The position numbers and the translations under genes were made by a program. Shown here piece by piece: positions 524 to 62,377 of a stretch of DNA of 64,000 nt; within the stretch, counting starts at the first letter, position 1; each line of letters begins with the position of its first letter. Location: the NCBI GenBank assembly GCA_000004985.1, contig GG738913.1; one strand, written 5' to 3'. The DNA is from Naegleria gruberi (taxonomy: Eukaryota). The notes under the pieces were generated by a model. That model was given only the letters and a program-made list of their open reading frames with translations, was not told where the DNA came from and made no database searches.

Positions 524-1219
524 TTATTTCTTTAAGGATGGAGAATTTGATGGCGTTCTAACCTTAAATCCTAACAATTCGGCAATTTTCACAACTGCCA
601 AAGGACTACTGTACACAGCACTGTTAACAACTGATGCAGGAATCCATCCATTGGCAGATGCTTGATTGGTGAATGAAACATGGAAGGTTTTTTCGCTCAA
701 CTTTTCAAATTTTCTCCATGCAAAAATGTTGGTCGAACGAACAGCACCTTTTTGGAACGAGAAATCTTTTGGAGTTTCGTACAAGTCGTCAACACTTGTT
801 GAAACGTGATTAAGAACATTTTCTTTGGTAAAGAATTTTTCCACACAAAGTAAATCTCTATCAGCAACAAAAGGAACACCTGCAGTATAACAAGTATATC
901 TAATCTTCCACAAATCTCCACTTTCGTCCTTCCATTCTTCCAAAGTATTCGATCTGATCGATCCTTTCTGCACATGATTCGTCTTTTCCAAATCATCAGT
1001 GGAGAAATAGTCCAACAATTGCTTGGCATCATCCATTCCCTCAACAATTACATCTCCCCTGATGATTGTATTGGCATCCCCCTTGTTATCATAAATATCC
1101 ATATTCTGTTTGGTGTGATGATAGTGCATTGCATCGAGGGATGACTTGTTCTGAGCCAATTCATAGGCAGTTTTCCACTTTTCAAGGATTTTCTTCTTTG
1201 ATTCTTCGGTGAGTGGCAT
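524..1219 (-). CDS. START / Bet v1-like lipid-transfer domain protein (231 aa), paralog of 8351..9067.
   Basis: Single-exon ORF. About 45% identity to the 8351..9067 product along the full length (shared YHHTKQ, TxxIRGDVIV, LEEWKD, WxICYxCxxAGxPFVxDRD, FQKGAVRxTNIF, NGWIPxxVVNSA, SNSPSLKK end). Overall pattern fits the StAR-related lipid-transfer fold. Confidence 0.55.
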   Translation of the reverse strand: MPLTEESKKKILEKWKTAYELAQNKSSLDAMHYHHTKQNMDIYDNKGDANTIIRGDVIVEGMDDAKQLLDYFSTDDLEKTNHVQKGSIRSNTLEEWKDESGDLWKIRYTCYTAGVPFVADRDLLCVEKFFTKENVLNHVSTSVDDLYETPKDFSFQKGAVRSTNIFAWRKFEKLSEKTFHVSFTNQASANGWIPASVVNSAVYSSPLAVVKIAELLGFKVRTPSNSPSLKK

Positions 1220-3177: not shown

Positions 3178-4989
3178 TTATTTATTGTTGTTGTTGTGGA
3201 GAGGAATGCACTGACCGTTGTTGCTTACATTGAGTGTGTTGGAGAGGAGTGGAGTGCCAATCTTGTTGGAAAGTGATGCTTGTGAAATGGAGGTGTGGAT
3301 GTGGGTTCCCTTCACCATTTTGAGAATTACGAAAGTGTCATACTTCTCTGTTGTGGTTTGGTCGCCATCCAATAGTTCAGCAAGTCCATAATATTCTGCT
3401 TCCAATTTGAAAACAGCCCAATCATACATTTTCACGCTCACGTATCCAATTTGTAAGAATTGATAAATTAATTTGAAGAATTTTGATGGTCTATCCACCA
3501 AAAATCTACCCTGTTCATCCATTCCACAATAAGATTCCAATCTATAAATTCTCTTATCAAATCCAGCACGTGCCAAAACTGTTTCGCATACAGTTAATTG
3601 AGTATCTGAAAAGACCAATGTAAAATATCCATCAATCATTCTCTTAGGGCTTGTATTGCCAGTCTTATTGGCTGTTGCTTGTTGCTGCAAATTGTTAGAG
3701 GAAATTGAATTTCTCCTAGACATGGTTGGTATTTGAATCACTGCATTTTGATACTCTTGTGTACTTCTCAATTCTCTCAATCTCTCTACGAATCTTTGAG
3801 GTCTGTCACAAAGGCAAAAGTTGGAAGCAGACAATCTTTCCCAACTTTTCAAATGACTTCTAATGTGAGCATAGTGGAAAAAGTCTGATTTCTTAACTTC
3901 CAAAATCATAATCCACAAACTAGGTACATTGGTTGTTTTTTTGAATTCCAATCGATAATGGATAGCAACTCTTGGAGCTGGTGTAATTTGGAAATTTCTG
4001 ATACAATTGTCAAACATGAGTCTAATCTTGTCTCTTTGTTTTTCAGAGAGTTTCATTCCCATGACAACACCATCATCTCGAACACCAAAAATCAAAGCAC
4101 CTCCATTAGAGTTTAAATAAGCAATCAAATACTCAGTCATTCTTTCTCCTAATTTAGCATAATCTATAACACCTGATTCTGAATTTGTTGAACTAGTAGA
4201 AGTTGCAGTGGTTGTTGGTGAAATTACAAATTGAACATGTGAATGCTCACTCACTGGTGTTTTCTCCAATGAACCAATATTTTCTGCAATGAGCTCCTTT
4301 TCAAGTTTTTGTGATTCCTCCTTATTGGTCGTCTTGAAATTGATATAATCCGAAAAGATTGTCAATTTATAATCAAGTGTATTTCCTTCATCATAATTTA
4401 ATTGTGTTCCAACAGGAAAATCTACATTCTCAATAAAGAACCAATCTTGTTGTTGTTGCTGAGTTTGAATAGAAGGTGATGGTGATACAGTTTTTACAGT
4501 TTTAATATTTAAATTATCGGTATATATAGATAATTTGGAATTTCCTCTCGAACGACCATTATTACCACTATTATCATCATCATCATCATTATTCATATTA
4601 TCACTATTTATATTATTATTATTATTACTATTATTACTATTACTATTTAATATTGTTGTTGTTGTTGTATTATGATGCATGGAAGAGGCTGATGATGGAA
4701 AATCCTTCAGCGATGAAGAAAATGGTGAAGTAATCGATCCAGTCGAAGTATTCGTATGTAAATCATCAATATCCTCATCAAAGCCTACTTTTGTATGATG
4801 ATGAGTAGTAGAAGCACCAACAACACCACTGGGAATATTAGAATTACTATTACTTTCATTGGAAAAGTAGGACCAATTAGAGTTTGTTGTTAAACTCGAA
4901 TGTTGTTCAAAATCTTCATCATCAATAATATCAGAATTGGATGATTTGTTGGTTTTTTCCTGTGGGGAAGTAGGTGGAGATTGTAACAT
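3178..4989 (-). CDS. Protein with an AlbA_2/Schlafen-type domain and a C-terminal BTB_2 (KCTD, K+-channel tetramerisation-type) domain. Long poly-N/S/T low-complexity N-terminus.
   Basis: Single ORF of 603 aa. The central segment VIDYAKLGERMTEYLIAYLNSNGGALIFGVRDDGVVMGMKL matches the Schlafen/AlbA_2 'divergent AAA' core. C-terminal GYFTLVFSDTQLTVCETVLARAGFDKRIYRLESYCGMDEQGRFLVDRPSKFFKLIYQFLQIGYVSV matches BTB_2. Confidence 0.5.
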   Translation of the reverse strand: MLQSPPTSPQEKTNKSSNSDIIDDEDFEQHSSLTTNSNWSYFSNESNSNSNIPSGVVGASTTHHHTKVGFDEDIDDLHTNTSTGSITSPFSSSLKDFPSSASSMHHNTTTTTILNSNSNNSNNNNNINSDNMNNDDDDDNSGNNGRSRGNSKLSIYTDNLNIKTVKTVSPSPSIQTQQQQQDWFFIENVDFPVGTQLNYDEGNTLDYKLTIFSDYINFKTTNKEESQKLEKELIAENIGSLEKTPVSEHSHVQFVISPTTTATSTSSTNSESGVIDYAKLGERMTEYLIAYLNSNGGALIFGVRDDGVVMGMKLSEKQRDKIRLMFDNCIRNFQITPAPRVAIHYRLEFKKTTNVPSLWIMILEVKKSDFFHYAHIRSHLKSWERLSASNFCLCDRPQRFVERLRELRSTQEYQNAVIQIPTMSRRNSISSNNLQQQATANKTGNTSPKRMIDGYFTLVFSDTQLTVCETVLARAGFDKRIYRLESYCGMDEQGRFLVDRPSKFFKLIYQFLQIGYVSVKMYDWAVFKLEAEYYGLAELLDGDQTTTEKYDTFVILKMVKGTHIHTSISQASLSNKIGTPLLSNTLNVSNNGQCIPLHNNNNK

Positions 4990-8350: not shown

Positions 8351-9067
8351 TTACTTCTTCAAAGATGGTGAATTAGTTGGCACTCTGACCTTCTTTCCTA
8401 AAAAATCAGCAACTTTGACCATAGTTAATGGAACTGGATAAATTGCTGAATTGACAACTGCTACTGGAATCCATCCATTAGGTTTTGCTTGATTGGCATA
8501 GGTCACTAAATATGATTTTTCTGAGATTTTCTCATAACGTTGAGCAACGAAAATGTTTGTAGCTCTGACAGCTCCCTTTTGTGGTTTGAAATCTGAAGGA
8601 GGTTCATAAATTTCATCACAACTGGTTGACACAAAGTAATCAACATTATCCCTCGTAAAGAATTTGACAACATAAATGAAATCTCTATCAGAAACAAATG
8701 GAGCTCCAGCAGAAATGCAATAATAACAAATTCTCCACTTGGATCCATCATCATCTTTCCATTCTTCCAATAAATCAACTCTCTTTGAATTGGGATCCAA
8801 TTTTGTGGCAATATTCATGTCCAAAGAAGTGAAATATTCAATAAATTCGTTTGAATTTTCCAAATCATCAACAATGACATCTCCTCTAATGACTGTAGTT
8901 GAATCCCCCTTCAATTCATAAACATCAACCAATTGTTTAGTGTGATGATATTTCATTTCACCATTTTCGCTATCGATGGCTTTTTGGCTGGTCAATTTAT
9001 CAGCAATTTCAAAAGCTTGTTGCCATTTTTCAACGACTTTTTGTTTGATCGACTCGGAGAGAACCAT
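8351..9067 (-). CDS. START / Bet v1-like lipid-transfer domain protein (238 aa), paralog of 524..1219.
   Basis: See 524..1219. Same orientation, about 7 kb apart, identical C-terminal SNSPSLKK. Confidence 0.55.
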   Translation of the reverse strand: MVLSESIKQKVVEKWQQAFEIADKLTSQKAIDSENGEMKYHHTKQLVDVYELKGDSTTVIRGDVIVDDLENSNEFIEYFTSLDMNIATKLDPNSKRVDLLEEWKDDDGSKWRICYYCISAGAPFVSDRDFIYVVKFFTRDNVDYFVSTSCDEIYEPPSDFKPQKGAVRATNIFVAQRYEKISEKSYLVTYANQAKPNGWIPVAVVNSAIYPVPLTMVKVADFLGKKVRVPTNSPSLKK

Positions 9068-11358: not shown

Positions 11359-14300
11359 ATGTCAGCACTCAAACAAGTTAAAATTGCTGCCTTGTTGCTC
11401 AATCTCTTAATTATTAGTTGGTGTTTGAATGTTTTTGGAGCGATTAATAGGTTTTCTGCAACTCCAAAGATATTCAATTTTGGTGGAGGAAATACAAGTA
11501 GGTTTCTATTGAGCTTTCGAATTGGAAACTAATATCAAAAAGTTGGTGATGGTTCGGATGCTAGTTTAGCTGTTTTGCAATCACCATTATCTCTATTTAC
11601 TGACTCTTATGAAAGTGGAGGTGATTTATTTATTGTAGAATCGAATAGAATAAGAAGAATCTTTTCCTCCAATAATACAATTGTAACCATAGCAGGAAAT
11701 GGATATTCTGGCTATACAGGAGAAGGATATCTTGCTCTTGAATCTAGATTATCCACTCCTAGTTCTGTTTTTGTTAAATCCAATGAAATTTACTTTACCA
11801 CATTGGACAGAATTAGAAAAATTGATTCTAAAGGTTATGTCACAACAATTACAGGAAATGGAATTCAACAATTAGGTCAGAATGGTGTATTTGCCAATAT
11901 TTCTTCGGTAAATATACCTTCCTCCTTGATAGTTTCAGATGAAAATGAAATATTCTTTGCTGACACTTTCAATTATCAAATTAGGAAAATATCTGATGGA
12001 ATTATTTCAACAATTTGTGGAATTGGAGAAAGTGGATATGGTGGAGATGATCCAATATTAGCCGTAGATTCTCCGATTGGATTAGTCACAGGAATGGCTT
12101 TAGATTTTGAAAATCGACTCCTCTATTATGTTGATTATGATAATAGACGAATCAAAATGATTAATCTCAATGATGAAATGCTCTATACACATGTTGGCGC
12201 AGGCTCCTTATTTGATGATAATGCTAATCGAAATGAAACTCAATTATCTTCTCCACACTCAATTGCCTTCTCATCCTATTCGGGTGCTCTCTATTATTCT
12301 GAAATTGCTAGTAATTACTCAGTGATTAGACGAGTTTATCAAGATGTGGTCAATACGGTGGTTGGTTCTGGAAATTCTGGTTTCTCTGCTGATGGATCCT
12401 TTGCTACTATTGCACAAATTAACAAACCAAAAAGTATTTGCATTACCAGTGATGAGGATATCATTTTCATTGACAGTGGAAATAACAGAATACGAAAGGT
12501 GCTTCACTCCAATGAAACTTTGATAACCATTTCTGGACAGAATACTTCCTTCAAAGCACCTTTCACAACTCCCATTCAATACTCTCAATTATACAATCCA
12601 ACGAGGATAAAACTATATGAGAACAAGACAATCATCACCGAATCAACAATTGTAAGACAAGTGGTGAATGGAGTAATTTCAATTGTAGCAGGTGTATATG
12701 GTAGCTTTGGAGTTGCACAAGAAGGTGCTTTGGCAACAAGCTCCTATTTGAGCTTTCCTAGAAGTGCTGCATTAGATCTTAATGGCAATATTCTCATAGC
12801 TGATTTCAATAATGGTAAAATCAAATTAATTACCAATAGCAAATCGTACACCTTTGCTGGAAGTAAGGCGACCTTTGGTCAAGAAAATGTGATTGGAACG
12901 GCCACAAGATTGTATAATGGATGTGGTTTCTCCTACTATAATGGAGAATTCTATTGGAATGATAGTGGAAATTGCAGAGTTCTCAAATTGGGAACTGATG
13001 GAATAGTTAGAAGAATTGCTGGCATAACAGGTATATGTGGCTTTTCAGGGGATGGTGGTTTGGCCACCAATGCTCTAATGGGAGTTTCATGGGGATTGAG
13101 TGTCTCACCAAGTGGTGATATTTATGTTGCTGAATCTATTAATTCTAGAATAAGAAAGATTTCGAATGGTATCATTACAACTGTTGCTGGAACATCAGTG
13201 GCTGGATACAATGGAGATGATATTGCTGCCACAAGTGCAAGCCTTAATGGCCCTCCTGCAGTCTTTGCTACCAGCACTGCATACTATTTGGCTGATGCTG
13301 GAAACCGTAGAGTTAGAAAAGTTTCATACAGCACTGGAATAATTACAACCATTGCTGGAAATGGAGCTAGTGGATCTTCTGAGGAGAATATTAATGCCAC
13401 AAGTGCAATTATTGGTACAAGCTCCCCAAGAGCTCTTTGGGTTAGCAATGACGATTCTGTCTATTATGCAGATGTTTCAAATGGAAAGACAAGAGTTGTA
13501 ACTAATGGAATAGTTTCGACCATCGCTGGAACTGGAGTGTTGGGCTATTCAGGAGATGGTGGTTTGGCAACCAATGCCAATTTTAGATGGATATATGGCT
13601 TGTGGATGGTTGGTTCTGACTTATATATTGCTGACAGTACTAATAATGTTATAAGAAAGCTGTCGAATAATATTGTAACCACAGTGGCAGGAACTGGAAA
13701 TGCTAACTTCAATGGAGATGGTATACCAGCTCTCTCTGCAAATATTAACACTGCCAATCAAGTAATTATTCATCCACAAACATCTGAAATGTTCATTCTC
13801 TCATCAGATAGAATCAGAAAGGTCAACACCAATGGCACCATTTCCACAGTGGTTGGAGGTATTGGTGATGGGGCTCAGGCCATATATGCACTCATTAATC
13901 CAACAGATATTCATGTCACCAATAATGGTACAATCTATCTCACAGATTCATTAAATCATTGCATTAGAATGATTACAAGTGATGGAGTTATTTCACTTGT
14001 TGCTGGTTCTTACTATGGTGGTTTTGGAGGTGATAATGGACCTGCTGCTAACGCTGTTTTGAATAGTCCAGAATCTCTATTTGTAAATTCGAAGGGTGAA
14101 ATTTACGTTTCAGATACAGTCAACCATCGAGTAAGAAAAATTGATTTGAATGGAACCATTACCACAGTTGCTGGGAGTGGTTTGGCTGGTTTCTATGGAG
14201 ATGGTGGATTGGCTACAAATGCTAAATTGAGTTATCCTATGGGAATTTACGTATCCAAAAATGGTGACATTTATATTGCTGATTATGGCAATCATAGAAT

Positions 14301-17300
14301 TCGAAAGGTTTTCAGTAATGGAACAATCACCACTATAGCTGGAACTGGAAGCATAAATTATAATGGAGATATTCAGGAGGCAACTTTAACAACTCTTAAT
14401 TCACCAAGAGGAGTTTACATGTCACCAAATGAAGATGAAATTTACATTGCCGATTCGGGAAATAACTTGATTAGAAAAATCAAACTTGATTGTCCATCAG
14501 ATTATGAATTGGACAAGAGATTGGGAGAGTGTGTGCAAATTGTCAAGTGTTTTGGTATTTTGGCCACCGACAACTCAGTTTGTTCTGGAAATGGACAATG
14601 TGTCGATGGAAGCTGTATCTGTAACAACCAAACCTTTACAGGGCCTAACTGCTCTAGTATCACTTGTTTTGGAAAAGTACCTTCAGATTTGATGGTTTGT
14701 AGTGGAAATGGTCAATGCGTTACAGCAAATAATTGCTCATGCCTTTCTGGTTATGTTGGGAATGAATGTCAAGCGAATCTGAATCCATTCTCCATCGAAT
14801 TGTTGAGAAATGAAACTATTTCCAATAATTATAGTTATCAGATTAAGGATAATGGATTGAATATGACAAATTATTATTGGACATGCCAGAATTGGGATCC
14901 AAATATTTCAATTTCAACAAGTGGAAGGAATGCATTCGTAACTTTCAGTTCAGCTTACTCTAAAGTGTATCTGTTGTCGGTTTATGCTTCAATTCCCAAT
15001 TTCAGCCCATATCCTCCAAGAATTTCGAATACTATCCTGTTCACTATTATTTCCCCTAATGTTACCATTCAGCCAAGTTTCAATCAAACAACCAATGAAA
15101 CTCTACAAAATAACCAGACAGTGAACTCAAACCAAACAACAAACAATTCATCCATTCCCGTTCAAAATAATCAAACAATAGCAAACGAAACATCCACTAA
15201 TTCAAACAGTACTGATACCAAAAGCGTTAATATTTCAGGAAAGTTGGGAGTTTTTGGTCTTCCCTCGGTTTTGGTTTCAAAACAGATTGACGTTTCAGCA
15301 GTAATTTCTAATATTTCACTGAACCAAACTTCTATCAATTCGTTCCTATCATGCACTCCTAATTGTACATTAAAAATTTCATATGAATGGAAAATCAATA
15401 TTGATAACAACCAAGCAGCCAATCAAACTGGTTTTACCACTTCCATTTCTTTAGGTAATAATTTGATGAGCTTTAATCCACCAATTCAAATCCAATTCAG
15501 TACAAGTAATGTAAAAGGAGAGAAATTCACACTTTCCCTTGCCCTTTTTTCAAACAATGGAAATATTTCATCGAGTACAAGTATGGATATCGTTACCCCA
15601 GTCCAACCACCAACAGCATCTAATTCCACAACTTCAAAATCATCAAATTATTTAATGAGTGTCAATCCAGAGAAGGGAGTTGCCCTGAGTGACTCATTTT
15701 CAGTTAGTGTCGCATCATGGAATGCACCATCACAAATTCTTCCTCTCAAATATGCTATTGGATTTGTTTCTAATGGAAAGGACGTGAGATTTACAGATTA
15801 TGCACAAACTACTTTGTTCAATATTTACCTTCCTTACTTGATCCAACAATCCAGGGGTCAAGTTTCAGAAATTCAACTCTATCTCTATGTTATGGATGCA
15901 ATTGGAAATGTTGTAACATCTCCAACTGGACTCTCCATTTCAGTTTCTCCTTTTAATGGAACTTCTAGTGAATTGGTCCAAAAAATCAACGAGCTTGGCA
16001 CTACTTCACTAGTAGTTGCATCCTATGATAAATCCTATACAGTTCTCTCAAGTAGTGGAGGAAATTCAAGTGAGTTAGTGTATGAAATTGTGAAAAATAT
16101 TCAAATTGATCCAAAGAATCCAGAAACTGCCCTCACATCCATCACCAGTCTTACATCCACTACGAGTGTAATTAATGAAAATATTGTGAGTGAAGTAGCA
16201 AGTAAGATCACCTCGTTTGTTGATAATGTGAAAGATATCTATGCATACGAAAAGAGAGTATATGGATTTGTCAAAAGCAAGGTTTCACCTGACAATATTC
16301 TCTCTACTGTGACTATTACTTCCAACCTATTAGCAAGTGGAGTTGATAGCGAGAAAACTGTTGGCGTAGTTGATAATGTTGCCTCAATGGTATTGTTAGC
16401 AGAAATTCCAAAACTTCTCACAAGCTCTGAAAAGCTCCAATACATCTCATTCACAACTGGTATGGTGAATATTACAGTTTCTAGTTTCAAGATGACCTCT
16501 CCAATAGAGGGTAATCAACTAATCGAGGAGGAGAACAATAAGGTATCTGCAAATTTGACAAGTATCATGATGGAATATGGAACCTTAAATAAGGAGTGTG
16601 GTCTATCGATGGTCTCCTACACAAAGAACATGAAGTTTGACAATTACACATCAAATACTATTCATGCTTCGAGTATTAACGATTTCAAATTCATTCAAGA
16701 GCAAAATATTGTACGACTCGATAATCTCGAGCATCCAATTGTGCTATCATTCAAATTATCTCATATTCCACAACAAAACAGTTCAGTAAATTCCACATTC
16801 TCCTGCAGATATTGGGATGAAACTAATAAGATATGGAGCGATAGAGGTTGTCAACTTTCCAATATTGACCTGAATGCTGGCACAGTAGAATGTTCATGCA
16901 GCCATACTACAATGTTCACAACATTTGTAGAACAAAAGACTACCAGTATTATGATAGCAATGAAAGAAGAAGTTGCAACATTATATTTTGTACAAATAGC
17001 TCTTGGTGCTGTTTATACTATTGTTGCTTTGGTAATTATTACTGGTTTGATAATATTGAGAAAGGAGCAACCAGTAACAAGTAGACTTATCACCCCATAT
17101 GTAGGAATGGTGGCTCTCATTGCAGAGAGTGTGTTGATTTACATTGTCCAAAGAAGTGTCCTTGTGAGTCAGCTCCTTTCCACAACAGATCCCAAAGTAT
17201 GGGAAGTTGGTGATAATGCTGCCAATATTATTGCAAACAGTGTTGCCATTGTTGTGAATACTTTGAATTTGACTGCTACATTGTGCTATGTGATGCAAGT

Positions 17301-18732
17301 TTCCAGATTCCAATTCCTTAAACATTTGTACAAGCTCTTGTCCGATAATAGATCAGATATGGCAAAGAATGCCAAGATTTTGAAAGTCCTCAAATTGATA
17401 ACCTCTCAGAAAATATTCTTTTCAATTATTGCAATCTTTGCCGTGTTGAATGTTTGTTTCTGGACTCTTTGGGTTGTTCTAGTAAGGACACAAGTCATTG
17501 ATGCCTCTACCTATACCTATATTGTATCATCTTGTTACATTACTTGTATTCTCTTCTTTGGAGCAGTTATTTGCATTGTAGCCATTGCTGATTGGATTAT
17601 TTCCACCAAGAAACACGTAACAGCAGGTCAGGAAAGAAAGAGAAAGACTGTCAGTTTCACCACTCTCAGCTCTGAACCACGAGAATCCATCAAGAAGCGA
17701 CTCTTCTCTCCAAAACAACTCTACGAATGGTTAATTCAAGTTGATGAACCACTCTATTTCCGATTCGAAATGCTCCTCTACATGATTTGCTTTGTCTTCC
17801 AAGTGTTAAATCTTGCCATTGGCTCCTCCAGTCTTTCCTACCGATATGCTGACTTGGATTCATACAAGAAAGCACTTGCTCTCGATGGAATCTCCTTCAT
17901 CTTTGAAGTACTCTATGTGGTGAGTTACTTGTTTGTGTTTGGTGGTTTTGCTCTCTTGATTGCCATATTGTACAAGTACAAGAAGAAGAAACAACATGAT
18001 GAAGCCTCTACTTTTCTCATCAACAAATTGAATGGTGGCAACAATAACAAGGTCGACGAAGGAATCATGAGTGAGGAGATGAGGGATGTGCTAGATAAGA
18101 ACGAAGGCTATCTATTATTCGAAGCCTTCTGTGAGAAGGAATTCTCTCTAGAAAACCTCTACTTGTACTCTGACTTGAAAGCCAATGAAACCATCACCAA
18201 AGGAAGACAATTCACCAACCTAACAACCTTCATGAGATTCATCTTTAATAACTACATCCGAACAGGAAGCACCACAGAAGTGAATATACCAGCCAAGTGT
18301 AGGAATAACTTTTTACTTGTCTATAAGAATGTAGCATCAAGTAGTGAACATATGCAACAACAATTGGGAATTGCTGAGAAGGTGAGTAGGAGTGAGGTGG
18401 AAAGACTCGATAGGAATCTACAGGTGGTTATCAAGAATGATCAAGTAGCTACTTTATCAACTAAAACAACAACTACAACTTCTACTAATGAACAACAACA
18501 ACAAGAAGGAAATATCAAATCTTCATCGCCAGTAGCTGCTGTAGAAAATGTTGATCATGTGGTGGAGGGTGTTGTTTCTGCCTTTGAATTCCTCTACAAG
18601 CAAACATTGGTTAATTTGGGTGATACCTTCTCTCGATTTGTCTTTACGAGTGAATACAAGGAATATTTGGCTTCATTGGAGGCTCAGAAGGTTGTTACGG
18701 TGGAAATTATTGCTGCCTACGGAGATGTTTAA
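11359..18732 (+). CDS. Giant adhesion-GPCR-like receptor of about 2440 aa: signal peptide, about 20 NHL repeats, EGF-like Cys modules, Ser/Thr/Asn-rich stalk, GAIN/GPS motif, 7TM, C-terminal RGS domain.
   Basis: Exon 1 is 11359..11497 (MSALKQVKIAALLLNLLIISWCLNVFG signal peptide). A 45-nt intron at 11498..11542 (GTAGGT..AG) preserves phase. Exon 2 is 11543..18732. NHL motifs (YxADxxNxRIRKI) repeat throughout aa 50-950. EGF-like CxxxxxCSGNGQCV appears twice. The GPS motif is CRYWDETNKIWSDRGCQLSNIDLNAGTVECSCSHTTMFTTF. Seven hydrophobic helices follow. The RGS core is LLFEAFCEKEFSLENLYLYSDL...FIFNNYIRTGSTTEVNIPAKCR. Confidence 0.6.
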
Positions 18733-31815: not shown

Positions 31816-34351
31816 ATGTCGCAACTTGATGTCAGCTCACATAATGCAAGAGATTCGTCTATTCCACTCCGTGCTACTACTTCTACCCTTCTAAAACAAT
31901 CAACACTCGAGCAATCGTGTGAGAAAGTAAACGAAAGTTCATTAATCATTGAAACATTTCCTTCCCAACATTCTATTGGAAATCAAACACGAAAGGTTCA
32001 TTCTCCACGTTCAGATCAAACTCTTTCCGAAGAAGAAACAAATTCCATCATTTTGGAAATGAAAGAAATGGACGAAATGTTTCGAACAAACAAGAAGAAA
32101 TCGAAATTTGCACATCTTTATCAATCAAATAAGAAACAAGGTTTAAATCAATCGTTTGCCACATCAGAAAAGTTTAGTTCATCATCCCATAATGAAAATT
32201 TATGTGCATCTTGTTGTGGAACTTTACGTTGGTCAACTGTCATGATTTTGACAGCTGTCTTTTCGATAATGATACTTTTATTTGTTGCAATCATTTCCTC
32301 GATTATTGTTACGAGTTATGATGAGTTGGAAAGAGGAAATTCCAAAGCAGATATGAAAAGAGTTGTCAAAAGTTTTTATGATGAATTTGTGAATTCATTG
32401 GAGGTATGTTTGACTTTTGACAATGAGTTTTAATTGAAATTTTGGATAGATTATGCAAGCAGTTGCTGTTTGGGATGAGCCTTATAAATTATTTCAAAGA
32501 TATTATGATCCATCAGAAAATCAAACTGAACTGGCAGTTGACATGCAACTTTTTTTGGAAACTAATATTGATTCAGCTCAAATGTTGTTGGAAAAACACA
32601 ACTATGCGCTGTTCTATACCTTGAATGGAACTTTAATTGCAAGTAGAGCTCACAATCTTATAGACGAAAGTCAAGATTTATCCGATTTGTCAAAAATTCC
32701 AAAAGAATTATTGGAATTGAATGTAAATTCGAATCCTCTTTTCAGAAATGCAGATAAAGCTGGAACTTCGAATGGTGGTTTCCTTAAAGTTTCGAATGGC
32801 GTAGTAGAAAATAGCAAAATTGTCATGTTAGTGGCGAAACCAGTTTCTCCAAGTAATTTCAATGAAAATAATCCAACTTCTGGATTGATAGTGTATGGTA
32901 GACATGTCACTTATCAAACTAAGGAAAGAAATGTGTTTAGAGCTTCTACATGTGTTAGTTTTTTGAATTTTGACGAAACTTTACAAAAATATTCGAATGT
33001 TAATGCTACGAGAGTTTCAGTAACAAGTAATATTTGGGAGAATGATCAAGTTTTATCCATTGATATGTATGACGACCTCTCTAGTAGAAACTCTCTCGAT
33101 GATCGTCATTGCTATTCGAAATCTGAACTAAACTCAACTTCCCCTCGAGTTGGTTCCATTCAATTCCTTGCCGATCTCAATGGAAACCCAATCCTAGCCA
33201 TCCGATCCGATACTGAACGAAACATTTACCTCCTAGGAGTTCGTTCCTTAGCCCTCTCCATTGCCTTACTAGTTTTTTCATGTATTATTGCAGCCATTGT
33301 AATCATTGCCTTTGTGGAGAGGCGAGTATTGAGGAGAATGTTTAAACTTTCAAGGAGAATTCAGGAAATTACAGCATCACATGATCCTAAACAGAGAATT
33401 GAAATTGGTCGAGGAGGAAACTCAATTAATGCCTCGGAAAGAAATTTGATTTTTGATGAAATTGACACGACGGCGAAATATATTAATGAAATGTTGACTA
33501 GTTTGGATATTGTATTGGAAGAGCAGTTGAAGGAACAGAAAATGTTAAGAAAACTATTGGAAAGAGTGTACACAGCAGAGGAATCAGGAAGTGCCATTAT
33601 GAATGCTGTGAAAGATGTCGTGTTTATTGTGAATGGAGATAGTGGACTAGTTCTGAATGCAAATAACAAGTTTTATGAACAGATGGAGAGGAGTGTGATG
33701 GAAGTGGAGGCAAAGGATCAAGTTTATGTTTCGAATTTGTTTTTGGAAATGAAATCACTCGAAGCCAAATTTCAGAATAATTTGAGAACTGCCTTACTCT
33801 CCCTTAATGATGGAAAATCGCATCTTTTCAGAGGAATGACTCCATCTGGTAAAATTATTAGATACAATGTATTCATTTCCAAAACAAAAGTCATGCAAAA
33901 TAACGAGAAGGTCATTTCATTCCTATTTATGGCAAAGAAGGACGATTCACTTTCTTTAGGAATTGACCAAGAAATCATTAATGAAAAATTTGAGAAAATG
34001 ATTAATAATACGAAAAAGAGAAGAAAATTCCAGAAATTCTGCTCAGAAAAAGGTCAACTCTACAATTTCAAGTTTATTAGAGAAGTAAGGGATTACAAAA
34101 CAACGGAACTTCCAATTGACCGAGCAAGGAAACAATCTGAAATTTGTTCCAACTTTTTGAGGAAAGATTCTCCATTCCCATTGAATATTGGAGCAATTGA
34201 TTTGATTAAGGGAGAAATTGAAAAGATTCTAAAAGAAGAAACACCTCAAATTTCCTTATTTGATGGATTGAATGATATTTTGGAAAGTATTTTGAAATCA
34301 GAAGTTTTTACACTTTACAAAATTCAAAAATCAAATCTTCTCTACACATAA
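31816..34351 (+). CDS. Two-TM sensor-type signalling protein: cytoplasmic N-terminus, TM1, extracellular sensor domain of about 270 aa, TM2, PAS-like segment, C-terminal RGS domain.
   Basis: Exon 1 is 31816..32403. A 46-nt intron at 32404..32449 (GTATGT..TAG) preserves phase. Exon 2 is 32450..34351. TM helices: VMILTAVFSIMILLFVAIISSIIV and YLLGVRSLALSIALLVFSCIIAAIVIIAFV. The RGS-like C-terminus is FQKFCSEKGQLYNFKFIREVRDYK...ICSNFLRKDSPFPLNIGAIDLIKGEIEK...LFDGLNDILESILKSEVFTLY. Confidence 0.5.
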
Positions 34352-44931: not shown

Positions 44932-47253
44932 ATGTCAATAACAACACAACATTTCGAAAATTTTAACAATAACAACCACTCCTCACAAACCAATGTGCAA
45001 AACACTGCTTCTAGTACCTCAACAAGTGGCAGCAGTCCAAGAAATAACTCTCACAGAATTAATAGACAATCATTAGAATCTAGATGGAGACTCCGAGAAC
45101 GTTCTAGAAGATATTCAGTTGCCTTGTCAACTAATAGTGGTGGAAGTGCTAGTCCTCCATCAACTTCAACAACTTCAACCTCTGCAGCCAATAATAATAA
45201 CAATTCGAATAATGATTCGTTTGTTTCTTCTCAAAGTTTTGGATCCAATGAAGAAACACAGCCACAACAGCAACAACAATCAACACCAAGCTCTAGAAGT
45301 TCCTCACTCTTTGATGCTTCCCAAATTCAGAAAAACATTAAAAAGAGAGGCAGTAGTTTGGGAGCTAATTTCATTTCTGGTCGAGATAACAAGACGAATA
45401 GTGTTGATGGAGTGGTTTTTAATGGAACTCAGAGAGATACCTCTCTGTCACTTGCAGTAATGGATTCCTCATTGGCTAATGGTCCAGTTTCAATGACCTA
45501 TGGTTCTGTTGATGCATTGAGAAATAGATTTTTGGACTTTGTGAAATCTTGTGGAAGCCAATCAAAACATTTGAAGAATCCACAATTGGATGAAGAGTTT
45601 GAGGTTAAATTATTGTTTATGGACTATTTCTATGATGGAAGTACTAGAAAACCATCAAAATTATTGAAAGATGTGCCAACTGTTTTGACCTTGTTGGATG
45701 TTTACTGTCATCATTTGGTTTTTCATTTTGATGATTGGCATTCACTTCCAGAAAGTGAAGATGAATATCCATATTTCAAACATATTGTGGAAACAGTCAT
45801 TCCTGATAAGGAAAAGTTCAAATGGATGAATCATTCGAGATTTGAACAATTTTTAATTGAAAAGTATCAAGATGCCATCTCTAAGGATTATCCACCACTT
45901 CGTTCTGATGAGATTTTGTTGAATCAACAAGAAACCAAGGAGAAGGAATCATCTTTTTCAACTACTACTGAGCAAACCAACAATTCATTGGATAATCTCC
46001 ATGCTAGACCAACCATTAGTTTATTACCTGAAAATTCTTATCAGGAAACTGAGGAATTGAGAAGAGACAGTGTTGCCAGTGATGATTCAAGCACTTCTGA
46101 TAGTAATGTAGTCATTACTGAGAATAGTTCCAACCCAATTCCAAAACCAACGCACAGAGTTGGTGTTTTGGAGGAAATTCACATGTTATGCGACATGTTC
46201 TTCTATGAATTGGAAGATTTATTTGTTCTCTATCAAGAAAAGAATCAAAACTATGTTCACAAATGGGTTCAACTTGGTTTAAAGAATGGATCGATTCCAA
46301 CCTATGTCATTGAAGTGTACCGTAAGAAATTGGAATATAACGAGAGTACGCAATCTCAATTCACAGTTGATGCCAGTGATTTTGTTTCACAACATGTCAT
46401 TGATAAGGATTGGAAGTTTTTGAGATATATGTGTAAGGAATATTCACCAGATTGGTATTGCTCTTACAAGGATATTGGAAATGTTGTGCAGTGGACCACT
46501 AAGAGAGATTACACAACCGATAATTTGAAATTGAGAAACTCCAAAATTGTTGGTTATATTAATTTGCCAATGGAGGATGTTGTGAAATCCTTCTCATTTG
46601 ATCATCATTTTTCATATGCCTTTGAGAATATTGAATTCCACAATTATCATCCAATCAATGCTAGTAATTCATTGCACAAGTATCCCTCTGCAACAGTTTC
46701 GGGTACATTCAATTTAAGTTCAGTCTTCTCAAAGAGAAGTATAGAGCAAGTTATTTCATGTAGATCAGTATTTGTGGGTAACGAATTGACTGAACACATG
46801 ATATTGTTCAAATCATGTGATTTATCACCAAACGAAAGTAGTAACTCCAAGAAGGGAAAGGTTAAATTCATGGGTCTTCGTCTCGTTTCTAAAATTGATA
46901 ATAACAGAACTAGATATTGTGAATTGAGGTCGGGAAATCTTGGGGGTGTTTTGAATTCTTCCCTAATTATTAACAATCCAATAATTAATAAGAAAGTTGT
47001 AAAAGGAGTTCATGGAGGATTAATTAATGTATTGAAACTTTTGAAGAATAATGGATTTCCATTCCCAGATGAGAAGGAGAATCACGTAGCTCGTGTTTGG
47101 ATTGATTATTGTAAACAGTATTGCAATGTTGATGTGAAATCTCTGTATGGACAATCAGCAGTAAGAACCATTGATTTATCACATAGCAAGACCAAGTACA
47201 GCAATGATGATTCCTCTTCCTCAACAACAGAAACAACATCATCCAATAAATAA
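44932..47253 (+). CDS. Member A (773 aa) of a three-gene tandem paralog family of unknown function. It has an extra Ser/Asn/Gln-rich N-terminal extension.
   Basis: The C-terminal ~500 aa align with 47677..49275 and 49493..51127. Shared motifs include YVHKWVQ vs YCKKWMQ/YCKKWLQ, ILFKSC vs FLYKSCNSDT/ILYKSCNSDT, and the C-terminal WIDYCKQYCNVD vs WRTFCEYCREYFKVD/WRTFCDYCREHYKID. Confidence 0.45.
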   Translation: MSITTQHFENFNNNNHSSQTNVQNTASSTSTSGSSPRNNSHRINRQSLESRWRLRERSRRYSVALSTNSGGSASPPSTSTTSTSAANNNNNSNNDSFVSSQSFGSNEETQPQQQQQSTPSSRSSSLFDASQIQKNIKKRGSSLGANFISGRDNKTNSVDGVVFNGTQRDTSLSLAVMDSSLANGPVSMTYGSVDALRNRFLDFVKSCGSQSKHLKNPQLDEEFEVKLLFMDYFYDGSTRKPSKLLKDVPTVLTLLDVYCHHLVFHFDDWHSLPESEDEYPYFKHIVETVIPDKEKFKWMNHSRFEQFLIEKYQDAISKDYPPLRSDEILLNQQETKEKESSFSTTTEQTNNSLDNLHARPTISLLPENSYQETEELRRDSVASDDSSTSDSNVVITENSSNPIPKPTHRVGVLEEIHMLCDMFFYELEDLFVLYQEKNQNYVHKWVQLGLKNGSIPTYVIEVYRKKLEYNESTQSQFTVDASDFVSQHVIDKDWKFLRYMCKEYSPDWYCSYKDIGNVVQWTTKRDYTTDNLKLRNSKIVGYINLPMEDVVKSFSFDHHFSYAFENIEFHNYHPINASNSLHKYPSATVSGTFNLSSVFSKRSIEQVISCRSVFVGNELTEHMILFKSCDLSPNESSNSKKGKVKFMGLRLVSKIDNNRTRYCELRSGNLGGVLNSSLIINNPIINKKVVKGVHGGLINVLKLLKNNGFPFPDEKENHVARVWIDYCKQYCNVDVKSLYGQSAVRTIDLSHSKTKYSNDDSSSSTTETTSSNK

Positions 47254-47676: not shown

Positions 47677-49275
47677 ATGACAGCAACCGCTATGACAGCT
47701 GCTGACCTACAAAAATCCAAAAAAATGTCATTTAGAAACAAGACGAATCCGCCTAAAGTATGCAAATGTCTTCCTAAAATTCCATTCGAAGTGTTGATTG
47801 GTTGTTTTCAAGAGAGTGAAAGGGTTTCGTTTCAAAGTGCTTCAAGTTTTTATTCGAATGCTTTTGGTCAAGGAAGACGAAACACCTTTTCTGGAAAGAG
47901 TTGTCTGTATCGAACTGTAGACTTACGAACAAAATTTGAAGAATATCTTTACGATAACTTGCCAATATTCGACAGTGAAGTCATTTGTCAAAAATTACAA
48001 TTTCTTGACATTTTCTGTGAGTCAATGAAAATCAAAGGAAAACCTCTCTATCACATTAGAGATGTCTTTTCACTTTGCAATACTTATCTTTATGAACTCA
48101 TTAAGGGTATTGAACAAGATGGTTCTGTCATTATCCACAACAATAGTTTGGAATATTCCTTCCTTAAACAGTTTAGTTGTGTTGTGAGTGAGAATGAAGA
48201 GTTGTTGCCAGTTTTTTCCAGTCATGAATATTTGAAGAGTTGGTTTAGTAAGAAACAGAAAGAATTGTTGGAATGGAAAGTGGACGAAACTTTTCAGCAC
48301 ACAACTGAGGAATATCAAGATGATCAACTTGGCATTTTGATCACCATGTTTGTCAATCAAATGCATGGACATTTCTTATATTTCCAAGAAAAGAATTCCA
48401 AATATTGCAAAAAATGGATGCAAGAAAACATTACAGAGCTACCGAAACATTTATTCGAATGTCTAAAAAGTGCTGCAGAAAAAACACAAAAATACAGAGA
48501 TCATCTTGCCTACAGCCACAACGATGGCTTTTCCATTCCCAAAATTATCGATGCAGATTTTGAGATTATCCACCACTTGTCGAATCTCAGAAGTTCCAGT
48601 TGGAAAATGCTTTCCATCAGCAAACTCAATGAAATTCTTTCATTTTCATCAACGGAGAATTTCACATCTTGTCCAAAAGGAAAAATTCACAAATTTGTAT
48701 ATTATGAACCTTACAATATTCTCCAGTTGACCAAAGCAATGTTATCATACAAATATGATCGTCCTTCTGAATTTTACAAACTTGGTGAGTGTCAAGAATA
48801 TCAAAAACTAGATGTCAATAATTCTTCCAAAAAGTATTCGACAGTTGTCATGCCTGTCAGTTTACAACTCAACTCTATCCTGCCAAAACGTCAAACCACA
48901 TCAATCTTTGCCACCAAAGCAAAATTCATCAATACTGAACTAGTCGAAACTACTTTCCTTTACAAATCATGCAATTCAGATACCAAGAATCCATACCTCA
49001 CACTTGGTGGATTTATCCTACAAAAAGACGATACGAATCGAACAAGAATAATCGATTCGAAAATGTATCATTTTGGAGGAATTTTACAAACTGATTTTGC
49101 GTTGAGTTTATTTGTGGCAAAATCAAGGAAAGAGTTGAAACCGAGGGTTGAGTGGATGATGGAGAAGGTGAGGGAGAAAGGTTTCGTATTGGATGAAGAG
49201 AAGGAATTGGTGTGGAGAACGTTTTGTGAATATTGTAGAGAATATTTTAAGGTGGATCCGAATGAATTGGAATAA
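47677..49275 (+). CDS. Member B (532 aa) of the tandem paralog family.
   Basis: About 45-50% identity to 49493..51127 across the full length: ...KYCKKWMQENITELPKHLFECLK / KYCKKWLQDNLPILPKHLFEDLK; TLGGFILQKDDTNRTRIIDSKMYHFGGILQTDF / TVGGFIIQKDDVDRCRIIDLKMFNMGGFLQSDF. Confidence 0.5.
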   Translation: MTATAMTAADLQKSKKMSFRNKTNPPKVCKCLPKIPFEVLIGCFQESERVSFQSASSFYSNAFGQGRRNTFSGKSCLYRTVDLRTKFEEYLYDNLPIFDSEVICQKLQFLDIFCESMKIKGKPLYHIRDVFSLCNTYLYELIKGIEQDGSVIIHNNSLEYSFLKQFSCVVSENEELLPVFSSHEYLKSWFSKKQKELLEWKVDETFQHTTEEYQDDQLGILITMFVNQMHGHFLYFQEKNSKYCKKWMQENITELPKHLFECLKSAAEKTQKYRDHLAYSHNDGFSIPKIIDADFEIIHHLSNLRSSSWKMLSISKLNEILSFSSTENFTSCPKGKIHKFVYYEPYNILQLTKAMLSYKYDRPSEFYKLGECQEYQKLDVNNSSKKYSTVVMPVSLQLNSILPKRQTTSIFATKAKFINTELVETTFLYKSCNSDTKNPYLTLGGFILQKDDTNRTRIIDSKMYHFGGILQTDFALSLFVAKSRKELKPRVEWMMEKVREKGFVLDEEKELVWRTFCEYCREYFKVDPNELE

Positions 49276-54831: not shown

Positions 54832-54904
54832 GGATAAAAACTAGTAGTAAAGTATACATCATTGTTGCAACAAATTTTGTTATGATATAATGTGTGAGTA
54901 TTAT

Positions 54905-61091: not shown

Positions 61092-61141
61092 NNNNNNNNN
61101 NNNNNNNNNNNNNNNNNNNNNNNNNNNNNNNNNNNNNNNNN

Positions 61142-62351: not shown

Positions 62352-62377
62352 TAAAGTTTACATCATTGTTTGAATAT

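What the first reader, a model, noticed from the sequence alone, without database searches (positions are those of the whole stretch)
11359..18732. Adhesion-GPCR with a built-in GAP: NHL-repeat / EGF / GAIN-GPS / 7TM / RGS fusion of about 2440 aa
One polypeptide combines a large beta-propeller-type NHL ectodomain of about 20 repeats, EGF-like modules, a mucin-like stalk, a GPS autoproteolysis motif directly before 7 TM helices, and a cytoplasmic RGS domain. The combined architecture of NHL ectodomain, GAIN-cleaved adhesion-type 7TM and self-contained RGS is not a textbook arrangement as far as I know. Receptor-RGS fusions are known (plant AtRGS1-type 7TM-RGS) and GPS/GAIN-7TM is the hallmark of metazoan adhesion GPCRs. 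It may represent an amoebozoan lineage in which ligand binding, possibly after GAIN-mediated shedding of the NHL ectodomain, directly controls G-alpha GTPase acceleration. The GPS reads ...VECSCSHT|TMFTTF, that is HT-T rather than the canonical HL-T/S, so the cleavage competence is itself a question.
Basis: partly seen in the sequence, partly recalled or inferred. Interest (0 to 1): 0.8.

Follow-up and report, generated by a model that had tools for sequence, protein, structure and literature searches.

The report
Naegleria receptor with built-in RGS
This is a real 2,442-residue surface-receptor gene of the amoeboflagellate Naegleria gruberi that joins an adhesion-receptor-like outer part to a seven-helix membrane domain and a G-protein off-switch (RGS) domain. 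It belongs to a "7TM RGS" receptor family already described in Naegleria fowleri, so it is a new member, not a new kind.

Summary
ATG 11359, a 45-nt GT..AG intron and one open exon to 18732 give a 2442-aa protein. It is identical to the annotated but uncharacterised Naegleria gruberi protein XP_002670636.1 (D2VZ75). Domain order: signal peptide, 18 NHL blades, 2 EGF modules, a REJ-like module, a GAIN domain with GPS, 7 TM helices, and an RGS box.

- The organism is a heterolobosean, not an amoebozoan.
- The GPS–7TM–RGS architecture is published. Bosch et al. 2022 describe 28 "7TM RGS" proteins in N. fowleri, many with GPS and EGF modules, and showed GAP activity for three RGS boxes.
- The 7TM has a generic GPCR fold but no detectable relationship to the adhesion/secretin 7tm_2 family.
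- H-T|T is not a decayed site. It is the family consensus (85 of 88 representatives), with His-2, Thr+1, Phe+3 and Phe+6 nearly invariant.

Most likely function: a receptor-GAP whose ectodomain controls RGS-accelerated GTP hydrolysis on Naegleria G-alpha. Cleavage and tethered agonism are untested.

New here: the NHL-propeller subfamily, the predicted full GAIN fold with a REJ-like module, and the conserved HT|T variant.

Verdict: new member of a known kind, moderate interest.

The parts
11359..11497 (+). Exon 1: start codon and signal peptide (aa 1-27 = 11359-11439) plus the start of the first NHL blade
   Evidence: hydrophobic N-terminus, KD 2.12. The spliced product equals XP_002670636.1.
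11498..11542 (+). 45-nt GT..AG intron
   Evidence: Splicing restores the frame. A second gene in the window has a similar 46-nt intron. No transcript data could be checked.
11545..14484 (+). NHL-repeat ectodomain, aa 48-1027: 18 blades of about 55 aa, enough for three six-bladed beta-propellers
   Evidence: Pfam TEN_NHL 1.7e-52 and NHL 4.5e-43. Blade count from the (I/V)xT(I/V)AG and DxxNxxIRK motifs. No DNA-level tandem repeat. Propeller number is inferred, not modelled.
14491..14775 (+). Two EGF-like modules, aa 1030-1124
   Evidence: Pfam EGF_2 4.9e-8 (2 stretches) and EGF_Teneurin 4e-6 (2 stretches), both above cut-off.
14776..15945 (+). REJ-like module, aa 1125-1514, containing the Asn/Thr/Ser-rich N-glycan insert (aa 1226-1275 = 15079-15228)
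   Evidence: No direct Pfam hit at E<=10. The region aligns at E 4e-62 with P0001 aa 6-395. That stretch carries Pfam REJ PF02010 above cut-off in P0001, P0003 and P0008. Insert composition.
15946..16938 (+). GAIN domain, aa 1515-1845: helical subdomain A (about aa 1555-1666) and beta-sandwich subdomain B (about aa 1681-1844)
   Evidence: AF2 model (subdomain A pLDDT 79-93). Foldseek PDB top hits are CD97 8ikj 8e-10, BAI3 4dlo 1.5e-8, BAI2 8oek, CL1 4dlq, ADGRL3 8vti and GPR56 5kvm. The only PDB sequences with weak similarity are adhesion GPCRs.
16801..16926 (+). GPS motif, aa 1800-1841: four Cys (1801, 1816, 1830, 1832), two Trp (1804, 1811), the tripeptide H1834-T1835|T1836 (16903-16911) and the Stachel-like strand TMFTTFV
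   Evidence: Pfam GPS 28.6 bits. Residue-level alignment to ADGRF1 and ADGRL3 places HTT on HLT. Family conservation.
16969..17979 (+). Seven-helix membrane domain, aa 1856-2192, with a 50-aa basic ICL3 (aa 2067-2116)
18082..18669 (+). RGS box, aa 2227-2422, split by a 76-aa low-complexity insert (aa 2310-2385 = 18331-18558)
   Evidence: Pfam RGS 32.7 bits. RGS16 5e-5. Equivalents of RGS4 S85, E87, N88 and N128 are S2248, E2250, N2251 and N2294. D163 and R167 correspond to D2407 and R2411 in GDTFSRF. The insert length varies among homologues.
18730..18732 (+). Stop codon

Best explanation
The gene encodes a Naegleria gruberi member of the heterolobosean GPS/GAIN-7TM-RGS receptor family, the '7TM RGS' proteins of Bosch et al. 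2022. A heavily N-glycosylated ectodomain of about 194 kDa is displayed outside the cell. It consists of three NHL propellers, two EGF modules, a REJ-like module and a GAIN domain. A GPCR-fold seven-helix bundle links it to a cytoplasmic RGS box.

The RGS box most likely acts as a GTPase-accelerating protein on one or more Naegleria G-alpha subunits, some of which self-activate. The receptor would therefore hold G signalling off. Ligand binding, adhesion or force on the ectodomain would change that GAP output, either through the 7TM or by removing the receptor from the membrane, as for plant AtRGS1.

The GAIN domain keeps the catalytic His(-2) and Thr(+1) and a TxFxxF(I/L/V) strand. Autoproteolysis at H1834-T1835|T1836, giving a CTF of 68.8 kDa, and a tethered-peptide step are therefore plausible.

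Shown: gene model, domain content, topology, family membership, conservation. Inferred: GAP activity of this particular RGS box, cleavage, and the direction of regulation.
For: - The protein is identical to an annotated N. gruberi protein.
- Pfam NHL, EGF, GPS and RGS are all above their cut-offs.
- There are seven TM segments, and the sequon distribution fits an N-out, C-in topology.
- The GAIN fold is supported by Foldseek hits to six adhesion-GPCR GAIN structures at E 8e-10 to 5e-4 and by GPS-level sequence matches to ADGRF1, ADGRL3, ADGRG3 and ADGRG1.
- The RGS residues that contact G-alpha in RGS4 are kept.
- The family is large: 91 representatives at E<1e-30 with the same GPS-7TM-RGS order, and all named ones are Naegleria or Willaertia.
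- Nf 7TM RGS1 is the family member P0010/FDP41_005437. The primer-encoded termini of Nf 7TM RGS4 (NKEM... and ...VVYGI) match the subgroup closest to this protein.
- Bosch et al. measured GAP activity and G-alpha binding for Nf 7TM RGS2-4 (PMC9283941).
- H(-2), T(+1), F(+3) and F(+6) are invariant or nearly so in 88 family representatives.
Against: - There is no experiment on this protein or on any N. gruberi member.
- The Pfam RGS match covers only profile positions 3-82, and the box carries a 76-aa insert. GAP competence is inferred from conserved contact residues.
The assignment of Nf 7TM RGS4 to the closest subgroup rests on primer-encoded end peptides only.
- P(-1) is Thr, whereas the adhesion-GPCR consensus is Leu or Ile (PMC13197933).
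- The AF2 model is of low confidence around the Stachel (pLDDT about 52-56).
- Nothing shows how the 7TM would transmit to the RGS box.
Confidence: 0.7

Rival explanations
1. It is a genuine G-protein-activating (GEF-type) adhesion GPCR. NTF removal exposes the TMFTTFV tethered agonist, the 7TM activates G-alpha, and the fused RGS only shortens the signal as built-in desensitisation.
Against: The 7TM has no detectable relation to 7tm_2. True adhesion receptors matched the family profile only over the GPS. Relatives without a GAIN domain share the TM6-TM7-RGS core and the PLxFR motif, so the 7TM belongs with 7TM-RGS proteins. The plant precedent, AtRGS1, acts as a GAP and not as a GEF (established knowledge).
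Confidence: 0.15
2. The GAIN domain is not cleaved. H-T-T is a non-cleaving variant, and the GAIN/REJ module is only a rigid stalk. Regulation would follow the AtRGS1 route of phosphorylation and endocytosis, not a tethered peptide.
For: P(-1) Thr departs from the Leu/Ile consensus. Several metazoan adhesion GPCRs are uncleaved. In 37 of 88 family members P(-3) is Asn, which creates an N-H-T glycosylation sequon on the site. ICL3 is long and basic with Ser/Thr.
Against: His(-2) and Thr(+1), the catalytic base and nucleophile, are invariant or nearly so across 88 diverged representatives, as are F(+3) and F(+6). A purely structural strand would not obviously need the His. This argument is indirect.
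Confidence: 0.35
3. It is a gene-model artefact: two or more neighbouring genes (ectodomain protein, 7TM protein, RGS protein) read as one.
For: In N. lovaniensis and for one N. gruberi paralogue, the database models are split or truncated (P0003 with P0006, and P0005).
Against: The open frame of 7190 nt is continuous with no stop. More than 60 representatives from several species carry GPS, 7TM and RGS in one polypeptide. The split models break inside TM helices, which points to annotation error in those models. N. fowleri family members are transcribed.
Confidence: 0.03

Closest known systems
Naegleria fowleri 7TM RGS proteins (Nf 7TM RGS1-4; Bosch, Jeck and Siderovski 2022, PMC9283941)
   Same: Same family by sequence. 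Nf 7TM RGS1 (= P0010/FDP41_005437) scores 781 bits over GPS-7TM-RGS. It has the same order, GPS then 7TM then C-terminal RGS, and EGF modules in the ectodomain. The RGS boxes of three members are proven GAPs for Naegleria G-alpha.
   Different: This protein carries 18 NHL blades where the described members have EGF arrays or lectin domains. NHL is not mentioned in that paper. No 1:1 N. fowleri orthologue was found; the best matches are 44-54% identical EGF-type members. The full GAIN fold, the REJ-like module and the HT|T consensus are not discussed there.
Plant AtRGS1-type 7TM-RGS proteins
   Same: A seven-TM domain with a C-terminal RGS box, acting as a receptor-GAP on self-activating G-alpha (established knowledge; summarised).
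   Different: From established knowledge, not tested here: AtRGS1 is about 460 aa and has essentially no ectodomain, GAIN or GPS. Homology of its 7TM to this one was not tested because no sequence was available.
Metazoan adhesion GPCRs (class B2, e.g. ADGRL3, ADGRE5/CD97, ADGRB3, ADGRF1)
   Same: A GAIN domain with GPS immediately before TM1, adhesion-type ectodomain modules, four Cys and two Trp, His(-2), Thr(+1) and a TxFxx-hydrophobic Stachel pattern.
   Different: The 7TM is not of the 7tm_2 family. P(-1) is Thr, not Leu/Ile. An RGS box is fused to the C-terminus. The lineage is Discoba.
Polycystin-1 / suREJ / PKDREJ ectodomain (REJ module followed by GAIN-GPS)
   Same: A REJ-like module directly upstream of a GAIN-GPS. 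These proteins are non-adhesion-GPCR GAIN carriers that self-cleave.
   Different: From established knowledge, polycystin-1 has an 11-TM, PLAT and channel-like C-terminal part, whereas this protein has 7TM-RGS. The REJ assignment is indirect for this protein, with no Pfam hit of its own.
Teneurin-type NHL propeller and EGF modules
   Same: The best Pfam models for the ectodomain are TEN_NHL and EGF_Teneurin.
   Different: Only the repeat types are shared. From established knowledge, teneurins are type II proteins with one NHL propeller and a YD shell. Here 18 blades sit on a type I-oriented receptor.

Membership tests
Heterolobosean 7TM RGS receptor family (Bosch et al. 2022) | Seven predicted transmembrane helices | tested here: met
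   Seven hydrophobic segments at aa 1856-2192. Seven helices in both AF2 models.
Heterolobosean 7TM RGS receptor family (Bosch et al. 2022) | RGS box C-terminal to TM7 on the same polypeptide | tested here: met
   Pfam RGS 32.7 bits against a cut-off of 23.9 at aa 2227-2309, with the conserved C-terminal helix GDTFSRF. No stop between TM7 and the RGS.
Heterolobosean 7TM RGS receptor family (Bosch et al. 2022) | Sequence homology of the 7TM-RGS core to N. fowleri members | tested here: met
   The profile search finds P0010 (= Nf 7TM RGS1 by primer peptides) at 781 bits and P0004 (N. fowleri) at 956 bits over the whole core.
Heterolobosean 7TM RGS receptor family (Bosch et al. 2022) | GAP activity of the RGS box on Naegleria G-alpha | not testable with these tools
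   Only conservation of G-alpha contact residues could be checked.
Adhesion GPCR (class B2) | GAIN domain with GPS motif directly N-terminal to TM1 | tested here: met
   Pfam GPS is above cut-off. Foldseek gives E 8e-10 to 5e-4 to six adhesion-GPCR GAIN structures. There are 22 residues from T1836 to TM1.
Adhesion GPCR (class B2) | 7TM domain of the secretin/adhesion family (Pfam 7tm_2) | tested here: not met
Adhesion GPCR (class B2) | Consensus cleavage tripeptide His - Leu/Ile | Ser/Thr | tested here: not met
   The site is H-T|T. His and the Thr nucleophile are present, but P(-1) is Thr, here and in 85 of 88 family representatives (consensus from PMC13197933).
Adhesion GPCR (class B2) | Autoproteolysis into non-covalently bound NTF and CTF; tethered-agonist activation | not testable with these tools
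   Needs protein biochemistry. The TxFxxF(I/L/V) pattern is conserved, but that strand is also structural.
RGS domain (PF00615) | Profile match above the curated cut-off | tested here: met
   32.7 bits against 23.9. RGS16, RGS5, RGS3, RGS10, RGS2, RGS4 and RGS8 are hit in the PDB search.
RGS domain (PF00615) | G-alpha switch-contact residues (RGS4 S85, E87, N88, N128, D163, R167) | tested here: met
   The equivalents are S2248, E2250, N2251, N2294, D2407 and R2411. The RGS4 sequence was recalled from memory and checked by its residue numbering.
NHL-repeat beta-propeller | Repeated NHL units in multiples that can close a six-bladed propeller | tested here: met
   Pfam NHL 4.5e-43 and TEN_NHL 1.7e-52. 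There are 18 blades. Closure into three propellers is inferred and not modelled.
Polycystin-1 / REJ-type ectodomain | REJ domain (PF02010) upstream of the GPS | tested here: inconclusive
   No direct hit at E<=10. The homologous stretch of P0001, P0003 and P0008 scores 28-41 bits against a cut-off of 25 and aligns to aa 1125-1530 at E 4e-62.
Plant AtRGS1-type 7TM-RGS | Homologous 7TM domain | not tested
   No AtRGS1 sequence or AFDB library was available. Only the architecture is shared.

The most novel reading that the evidence does not exclude
The heterolobosean H-T|T GAIN domain is a working autoprotease, and its TxFxxF strand is a tethered ligand for a non-class-B 7TM. Shedding or pulling on the NHL ectodomain would then switch a fused RGS GAP, making this an 'inverse adhesion GPCR' that signals by releasing G-alpha from GAP control. 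That would place GAIN-controlled 7TM signalling outside Amorphea. It would show that the GAIN/Stachel module can drive a 7TM unrelated to 7tm_2, whether through ancient origin, module transfer or convergence.
Probability: 0.25. Interest if true: 0.75.

Novelty: new member of a known kind. Interest (0 to 1): 0.35.

Why it matters
How 7TM-RGS proteins sense anything is still open, even for plant AtRGS1. [quoted passage not shown]

This family offers a concrete handle on that question. It has a predicted complete GAIN domain, invariant catalytic residues and a conserved Stachel-like strand in front of the 7TM, plus swappable ectodomains (NHL, EGF arrays, Kelch-like, lectin).

If the H-T|T site cleaves, the accepted P(-1) Leu/Ile rule would widen. 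GAIN-based mechanosensing would also be shown in Discoba, which bears on the origin of adhesion-GPCR logic.

The N. fowleri relatives are surface proteins of a lethal pathogen. For this particular gene the practical value is modest, because it is one uncharacterised paralogue among dozens.

Tried and rejected
- Amoebozoan origin: rejected. The protein is an exact match to an N. gruberi protein, and all named relatives are Naegleria or Willaertia.
- Adhesion-type 7TM: rejected at sequence and profile level. The fold searches do not discriminate between GPCR classes.
- Direct Pfam REJ or GAIN call on this protein: none at E<=10. Only transitive support is available.
- Recent tandem duplication of the NHL blades at DNA level: none.
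- A 1:1 NHL-bearing orthologue in N. fowleri or N. lovaniensis: not found. The closest core homologues have EGF-type ectodomains. NHL-bearing members exist in N. gruberi (P0016, P0027, P0020, P0005), N. fowleri (FDP41_008291) and Willaertia (P0066), but they are more distant in the core.
- The look-up of encoding contigs for neighbouring ORFs and for P0005: nothing on record.
- The P0001 contig is cut at its 5' end, so its ectodomain is unknown.
- The AFDB50 fold library was unavailable, so similarity to AtRGS1-type 7TM models could not be tested.
- MAFFT misplaced the C-terminal RGS helices into the insert. The family alignment and a weak HMMER alignment were used for that segment.
- Homologue search for the neighbouring CHASE4-RGS gene: no hits.
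Full report
OBSERVATION

The region holds one long gene on the + strand. An ATG at 11359 opens a 139-nt exon that encodes a hydrophobic signal peptide. A 45-nt GT..AG intron (11498-11542) joins it in frame to a 7190-nt exon that runs without a stop to 18732. The product is 2442 aa. Unspliced, the ATG frame stops inside the intron. The long exon has no Met before residue 231, so the spliced model is the only one that yields a signal peptide and a complete first repeat.

The exhaustive profile search returned a database protein of exactly this sequence (identity checked). It is Naegleria gruberi XP_002670636.1 / EFC37892.1 / UniProt D2VZ75, locus NAEGRDRAFT_74387, named only 'predicted protein'. 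The window is therefore N. gruberi (Heterolobosea, Discoba) and not an amoebozoan. The gene model, intron included, already exists in the public annotation.

DOMAIN CONTENT

Pfam calls these families above their curated cut-offs:
- TEN_NHL (1.7e-52) and NHL (4.5e-43).
- EGF_2 and EGF_Teneurin, two modules.
- GPS (28.6 bits against 22.5).
- RGS (32.7 bits against 23.9).

A repeat parse gives 18 NHL blades of about 55 aa between residues 47 and 1027. That is enough for three six-bladed propellers. This is an inference, because no propeller model was made. There is no DNA-level tandem repeat.

Hydropathy gives a signal peptide and exactly seven membrane segments at residues 1856-2192. There are 45 N-x-S/T sequons before TM1 and two after TM7. 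This fits an outside N-terminus and a cytoplasmic RGS box.

The stretch between the EGF modules and the GPS has no Pfam hit of its own, even at E<=10. Residues 1125-1530 nevertheless align at E 4e-62 with the homologue P0001. The aligned part of P0001, P0003 and P0008 carries Pfam REJ above cut-off, at 28-41 bits. It sits inside this REJ-like module and is absent from P0001.

GAIN DOMAIN AND GPS

An AlphaFold2 model of residues 1515-2442 was built from nine sequences (mean pLDDT 68). It shows, in order:
- a helical bundle with pLDDT 79-93;
- a beta-sandwich ending at the GPS;
- seven long helices;
- a helical C-terminal domain.

Foldseek against the PDB puts adhesion-GPCR GAIN structures on top:

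| Structure | Receptor | E-value |
|---|---|---|
| 8ikj | CD97 | 8e-10 (654 columns, GAIN plus 7TM) |
| 4dlo | BAI3 | 1.5e-8 |
| 8oek | BAI2 | 1.3e-7 |
| 4dlq | latrophilin-1 | 1.7e-7 |
| 8vti | ADGRL3 | 2.6e-7 |
| 5kvm | GPR56 | 4.9e-4 |

At sequence level, the only PDB chains with any similarity to residues 1515-1850 are adhesion GPCRs (ADGRF1 0.002, ADGRL3, ADGRG3, ADGRG1). They align over the GPS so that H1834-T1835-T1836 lies on H-L-T. The four Cys and two Trp of the motif are present. The predicted fold is thus a complete GAIN domain and not only a GPS motif.

The model is weak around the last strand (pLDDT about 52-56). The position of the Stachel inside the sandwich is therefore not shown.

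THE H-T|T SITE

I examined 88 family representatives that have a GPS in front of the 7TM-RGS core.
- With no constraint on the tripeptide, the count was HT|T 82, HA|T 3 and HL|T 3. All three HL|T sites are in one crustacean adhesion GPCR.
- Excluding that protein and near-duplicates, P(-1) is Thr in 85 of 88 and P(+1) is Thr in 87 of 88.
- F(+3) and F(+6) are each present in 86 of 88, and position +7 is Ile, Leu or Val in 80 of 88.

The family consensus is CxC(N/D/T/S)-H-T|T-x-F-(S/A/T)-(A/T/S)-F-(I/L/V)-E. H-T|T is a conserved lineage-specific variant that keeps the catalytic base and the nucleophile. It is not a decayed site.

This argues for a constrained function. It does not prove cleavage, because the same strand is structural. 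In 37 of 88 members P(-3) is Asn, which creates an N-H-T sequon on the site. I cannot explain this.

THE SEVEN-HELIX DOMAIN

No Pfam 7TM family matches at E<=10. A 22-sequence profile of the family 7TM finds no solved GPCR sequence at E<=10.

Two true adhesion GPCRs turned up in the profile search, P0151 (Darwinula) and P0097, with 7tm_2 scores of 123 and 100 bits. They matched the family profile only over the GPS positions. hhalign of the family 7TM profile against their aligned 7TM domains gives probability 0.4% over 32 columns. The template alignment has only two sequences, so that test is weak.

A separate AF2 model of residues 1838-2200 (pTM 0.73) gave these results:
- No Foldseek hit at or below E 0.001, and a mixture of class B1 and class A receptors at E 0.07-0.3.

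The bundle therefore has a GPCR fold but cannot be assigned to the adhesion/secretin class.

More distant hits of the profile search are shorter 7TM-RGS proteins without a GPS. They share TM6-TM7-RGS and a PLxFR motif before TM6; one such hit, from Willaertia, has a Pfam RGS call. This places the 7TM with 7TM-RGS proteins. It suggests that the GAIN module was joined to, or lost from, that scaffold.

THE RGS BOX

The Pfam match covers profile positions 3-82. A 76-residue low-complexity insert follows (aa 2310-2385) and varies in length among homologues. The conserved last helices come after it (F..L....NLGDTFSRF).

The best solved relatives are RGS16 (5e-5), RGS5, RGS3, RGS10, RGS2, RGS4 and RGS8.

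I aligned the box to RGS4, whose sequence I recalled from memory and validated by its residue numbering. The G-alpha contact residues correspond as follows:
- S85, E87, N88 and N128 correspond to S2248, E2250, N2251 and N2294.
- D163 and R167 correspond to D2407 and R2411 in the family alignment and in a weak HMMER alignment.

GAP competence is thus plausible but inferred.

FAMILY AND LITERATURE

The profile search of 1.84 billion representatives gives 867 hits at E<=0.001 and 91 at E<=1e-30. Most of the latter span GPS-7TM-RGS in proteins of 1200-2700 aa. Every named one is from N. gruberi, N. fowleri, N. lovaniensis or Willaertia magna. The rest are unnamed metagenome contigs.

Ectodomains differ between paralogues: long EGF arrays, Kelch-like repeats, B-lectin, or NHL. 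NHL-bearing members are N. gruberi P0016, P0027, P0020 and P0005, N. fowleri FDP41_008291 and Willaertia P0066.

The closest core relatives of this protein are 44-54% identical and have EGF-type ectodomains. The NHL block therefore looks shuffled onto a conserved REJ-GAIN-7TM-RGS core.

Bosch, Jeck and Siderovski (J Biol Chem 2022, PMC9283941) report the following:
- N. fowleri has 28 '7TM RGS' proteins.
- Their ectodomains carry EGF repeats and lectin domains.
- The RGS boxes of Nf 7TM RGS2-4 have GAP activity and bind specific G-alpha subunits, including self-activating ones.

From their primer table, Nf 7TM RGS1 is P0010/FDP41_005437. The end peptides of Nf 7TM RGS4 (NKEM... and ...VVYGI) match the P0001/P0002/P0006 subgroup, which is nearest to this protein. 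That last link is an inference from short peptides.

De Mendoza et al. 2014 (PMC3971589) already list 7TM-RGS architectures in many bikonts. No paper in the held library mentions both Naegleria and 'GAIN domain'. The 2026 adhesion-GPCR review does not mention Naegleria.

MECHANISM

Most likely (about 0.7) the protein is a receptor-GAP. The RGS box accelerates GTP hydrolysis on Naegleria G-alpha, and the ectodomain modulates that activity, as proposed for the N. fowleri family and for plant AtRGS1.

Shown: architecture, topology, family membership and conservation of catalytic-type residues. Inferred: GAP activity of this box, cleavage at H1834-T1835|T1836, and any Stachel-to-7TM step.

Rivals:
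- A GEF-type adhesion GPCR with a self-limiting RGS (0.15).
- An uncleaved GAIN used only as a stalk, with AtRGS1-like regulation (0.35; this concerns the cleavage step only and is compatible with the receptor-GAP reading).
- A fused gene model (0.03).

VERDICT

The lineage assignment, the 'adhesion-type 7TM' and the claim that the arrangement is unknown do not survive.

What this work adds:
- the NHL-propeller subfamily;
- the predicted full GAIN fold with a REJ-like module;
- the family-wide H-T|T / TxFxxF consensus;
- the negative result on 7tm_2 membership.

The finding is a new member of a known kind. Interest is 0.35.

Noticed in passing
window 31816-34351 (+), intron 32404-32449: A second receptor-RGS gene of a different build lies about 13 kb downstream. 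It is an 829-aa protein with a cytoplasmic N-terminus, a TM helix, a Pfam CHASE4 sensor domain of the kind found in bacterial sensors (5.5e-7, above cut-off), a second TM helix, a linker of about 220 aa and a C-terminal RGS (2.1e-8). The word-index homologue search found no relatives. A CHASE4-RGS fusion may be more unusual than the finding itself.
   Followed up: partly
window 53386-55201 vs 61160-62674; ORFs 54905-56470(-) and 62378-63298(-): There is a recent segmental duplication about 7.5-7.8 kb apart, 90-99% identical at DNA level. The two BTB-domain ORFs are 100% identical over 306 aa, and the adjacent + strand ORFs are 87-96% identical.
   Followed up: partly
window about 60563-61170 (+), inside ORF 60648-62351: A long array of a 12-nt tandem unit (34 or more registered copies, mostly 99% identical) lies inside an ORF with no Pfam match.
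   Followed up: no
window 44932-47253, 47677-49275, 49493-51127 (+): Three consecutive same-strand paralogous ORFs (23-42% identity) have no Pfam family. They form a small tandem gene family of unknown function.
   Followed up: no
window 3178-4989 (-): A 603-aa ORF combines a Schlafen AlbA_2 domain (7.6e-10) with a BTB_2 domain (1.6e-5).
   Followed up: no
window 524-1219 (-) and 8351-9067 (-): Two ORFs about 8 kb apart are 51% identical over 238 aa. Their families were not examined.
   Followed up: no
related proteins P0003 + P0006 (N. lovaniensis C9374_004465/004464), P0005 (N. gruberi), P0074 + P0156 (N. fowleri FDP41_008291/008292): Several database gene models of this family appear to be split or truncated inside the 7TM. 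P0003 ends in TM1 and P0006 starts around TM2-TM3, and their locus tags are consecutive. P0005 ends after TM2. These are probably annotation errors and not real truncations.
   Followed up: partly
family GPS sites (88 representatives): In 37 of 88 members the residue before His(-2) is Asn, so the cleavage tripeptide itself forms an N-H-T N-glycosylation sequon. This is unexplained. The window protein has Ser at that position.
   Followed up: no
related protein P0110 (JGI metagenome, 750 aa): A distant 7TM-RGS relative carries alpha/beta-hydrolase Pfam hits (Abhydrolase_4, 9.4e-6) in its N-terminal part, ahead of the 7TM and RGS. This is another example of ectodomain swapping on this scaffold.
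   Followed up: no
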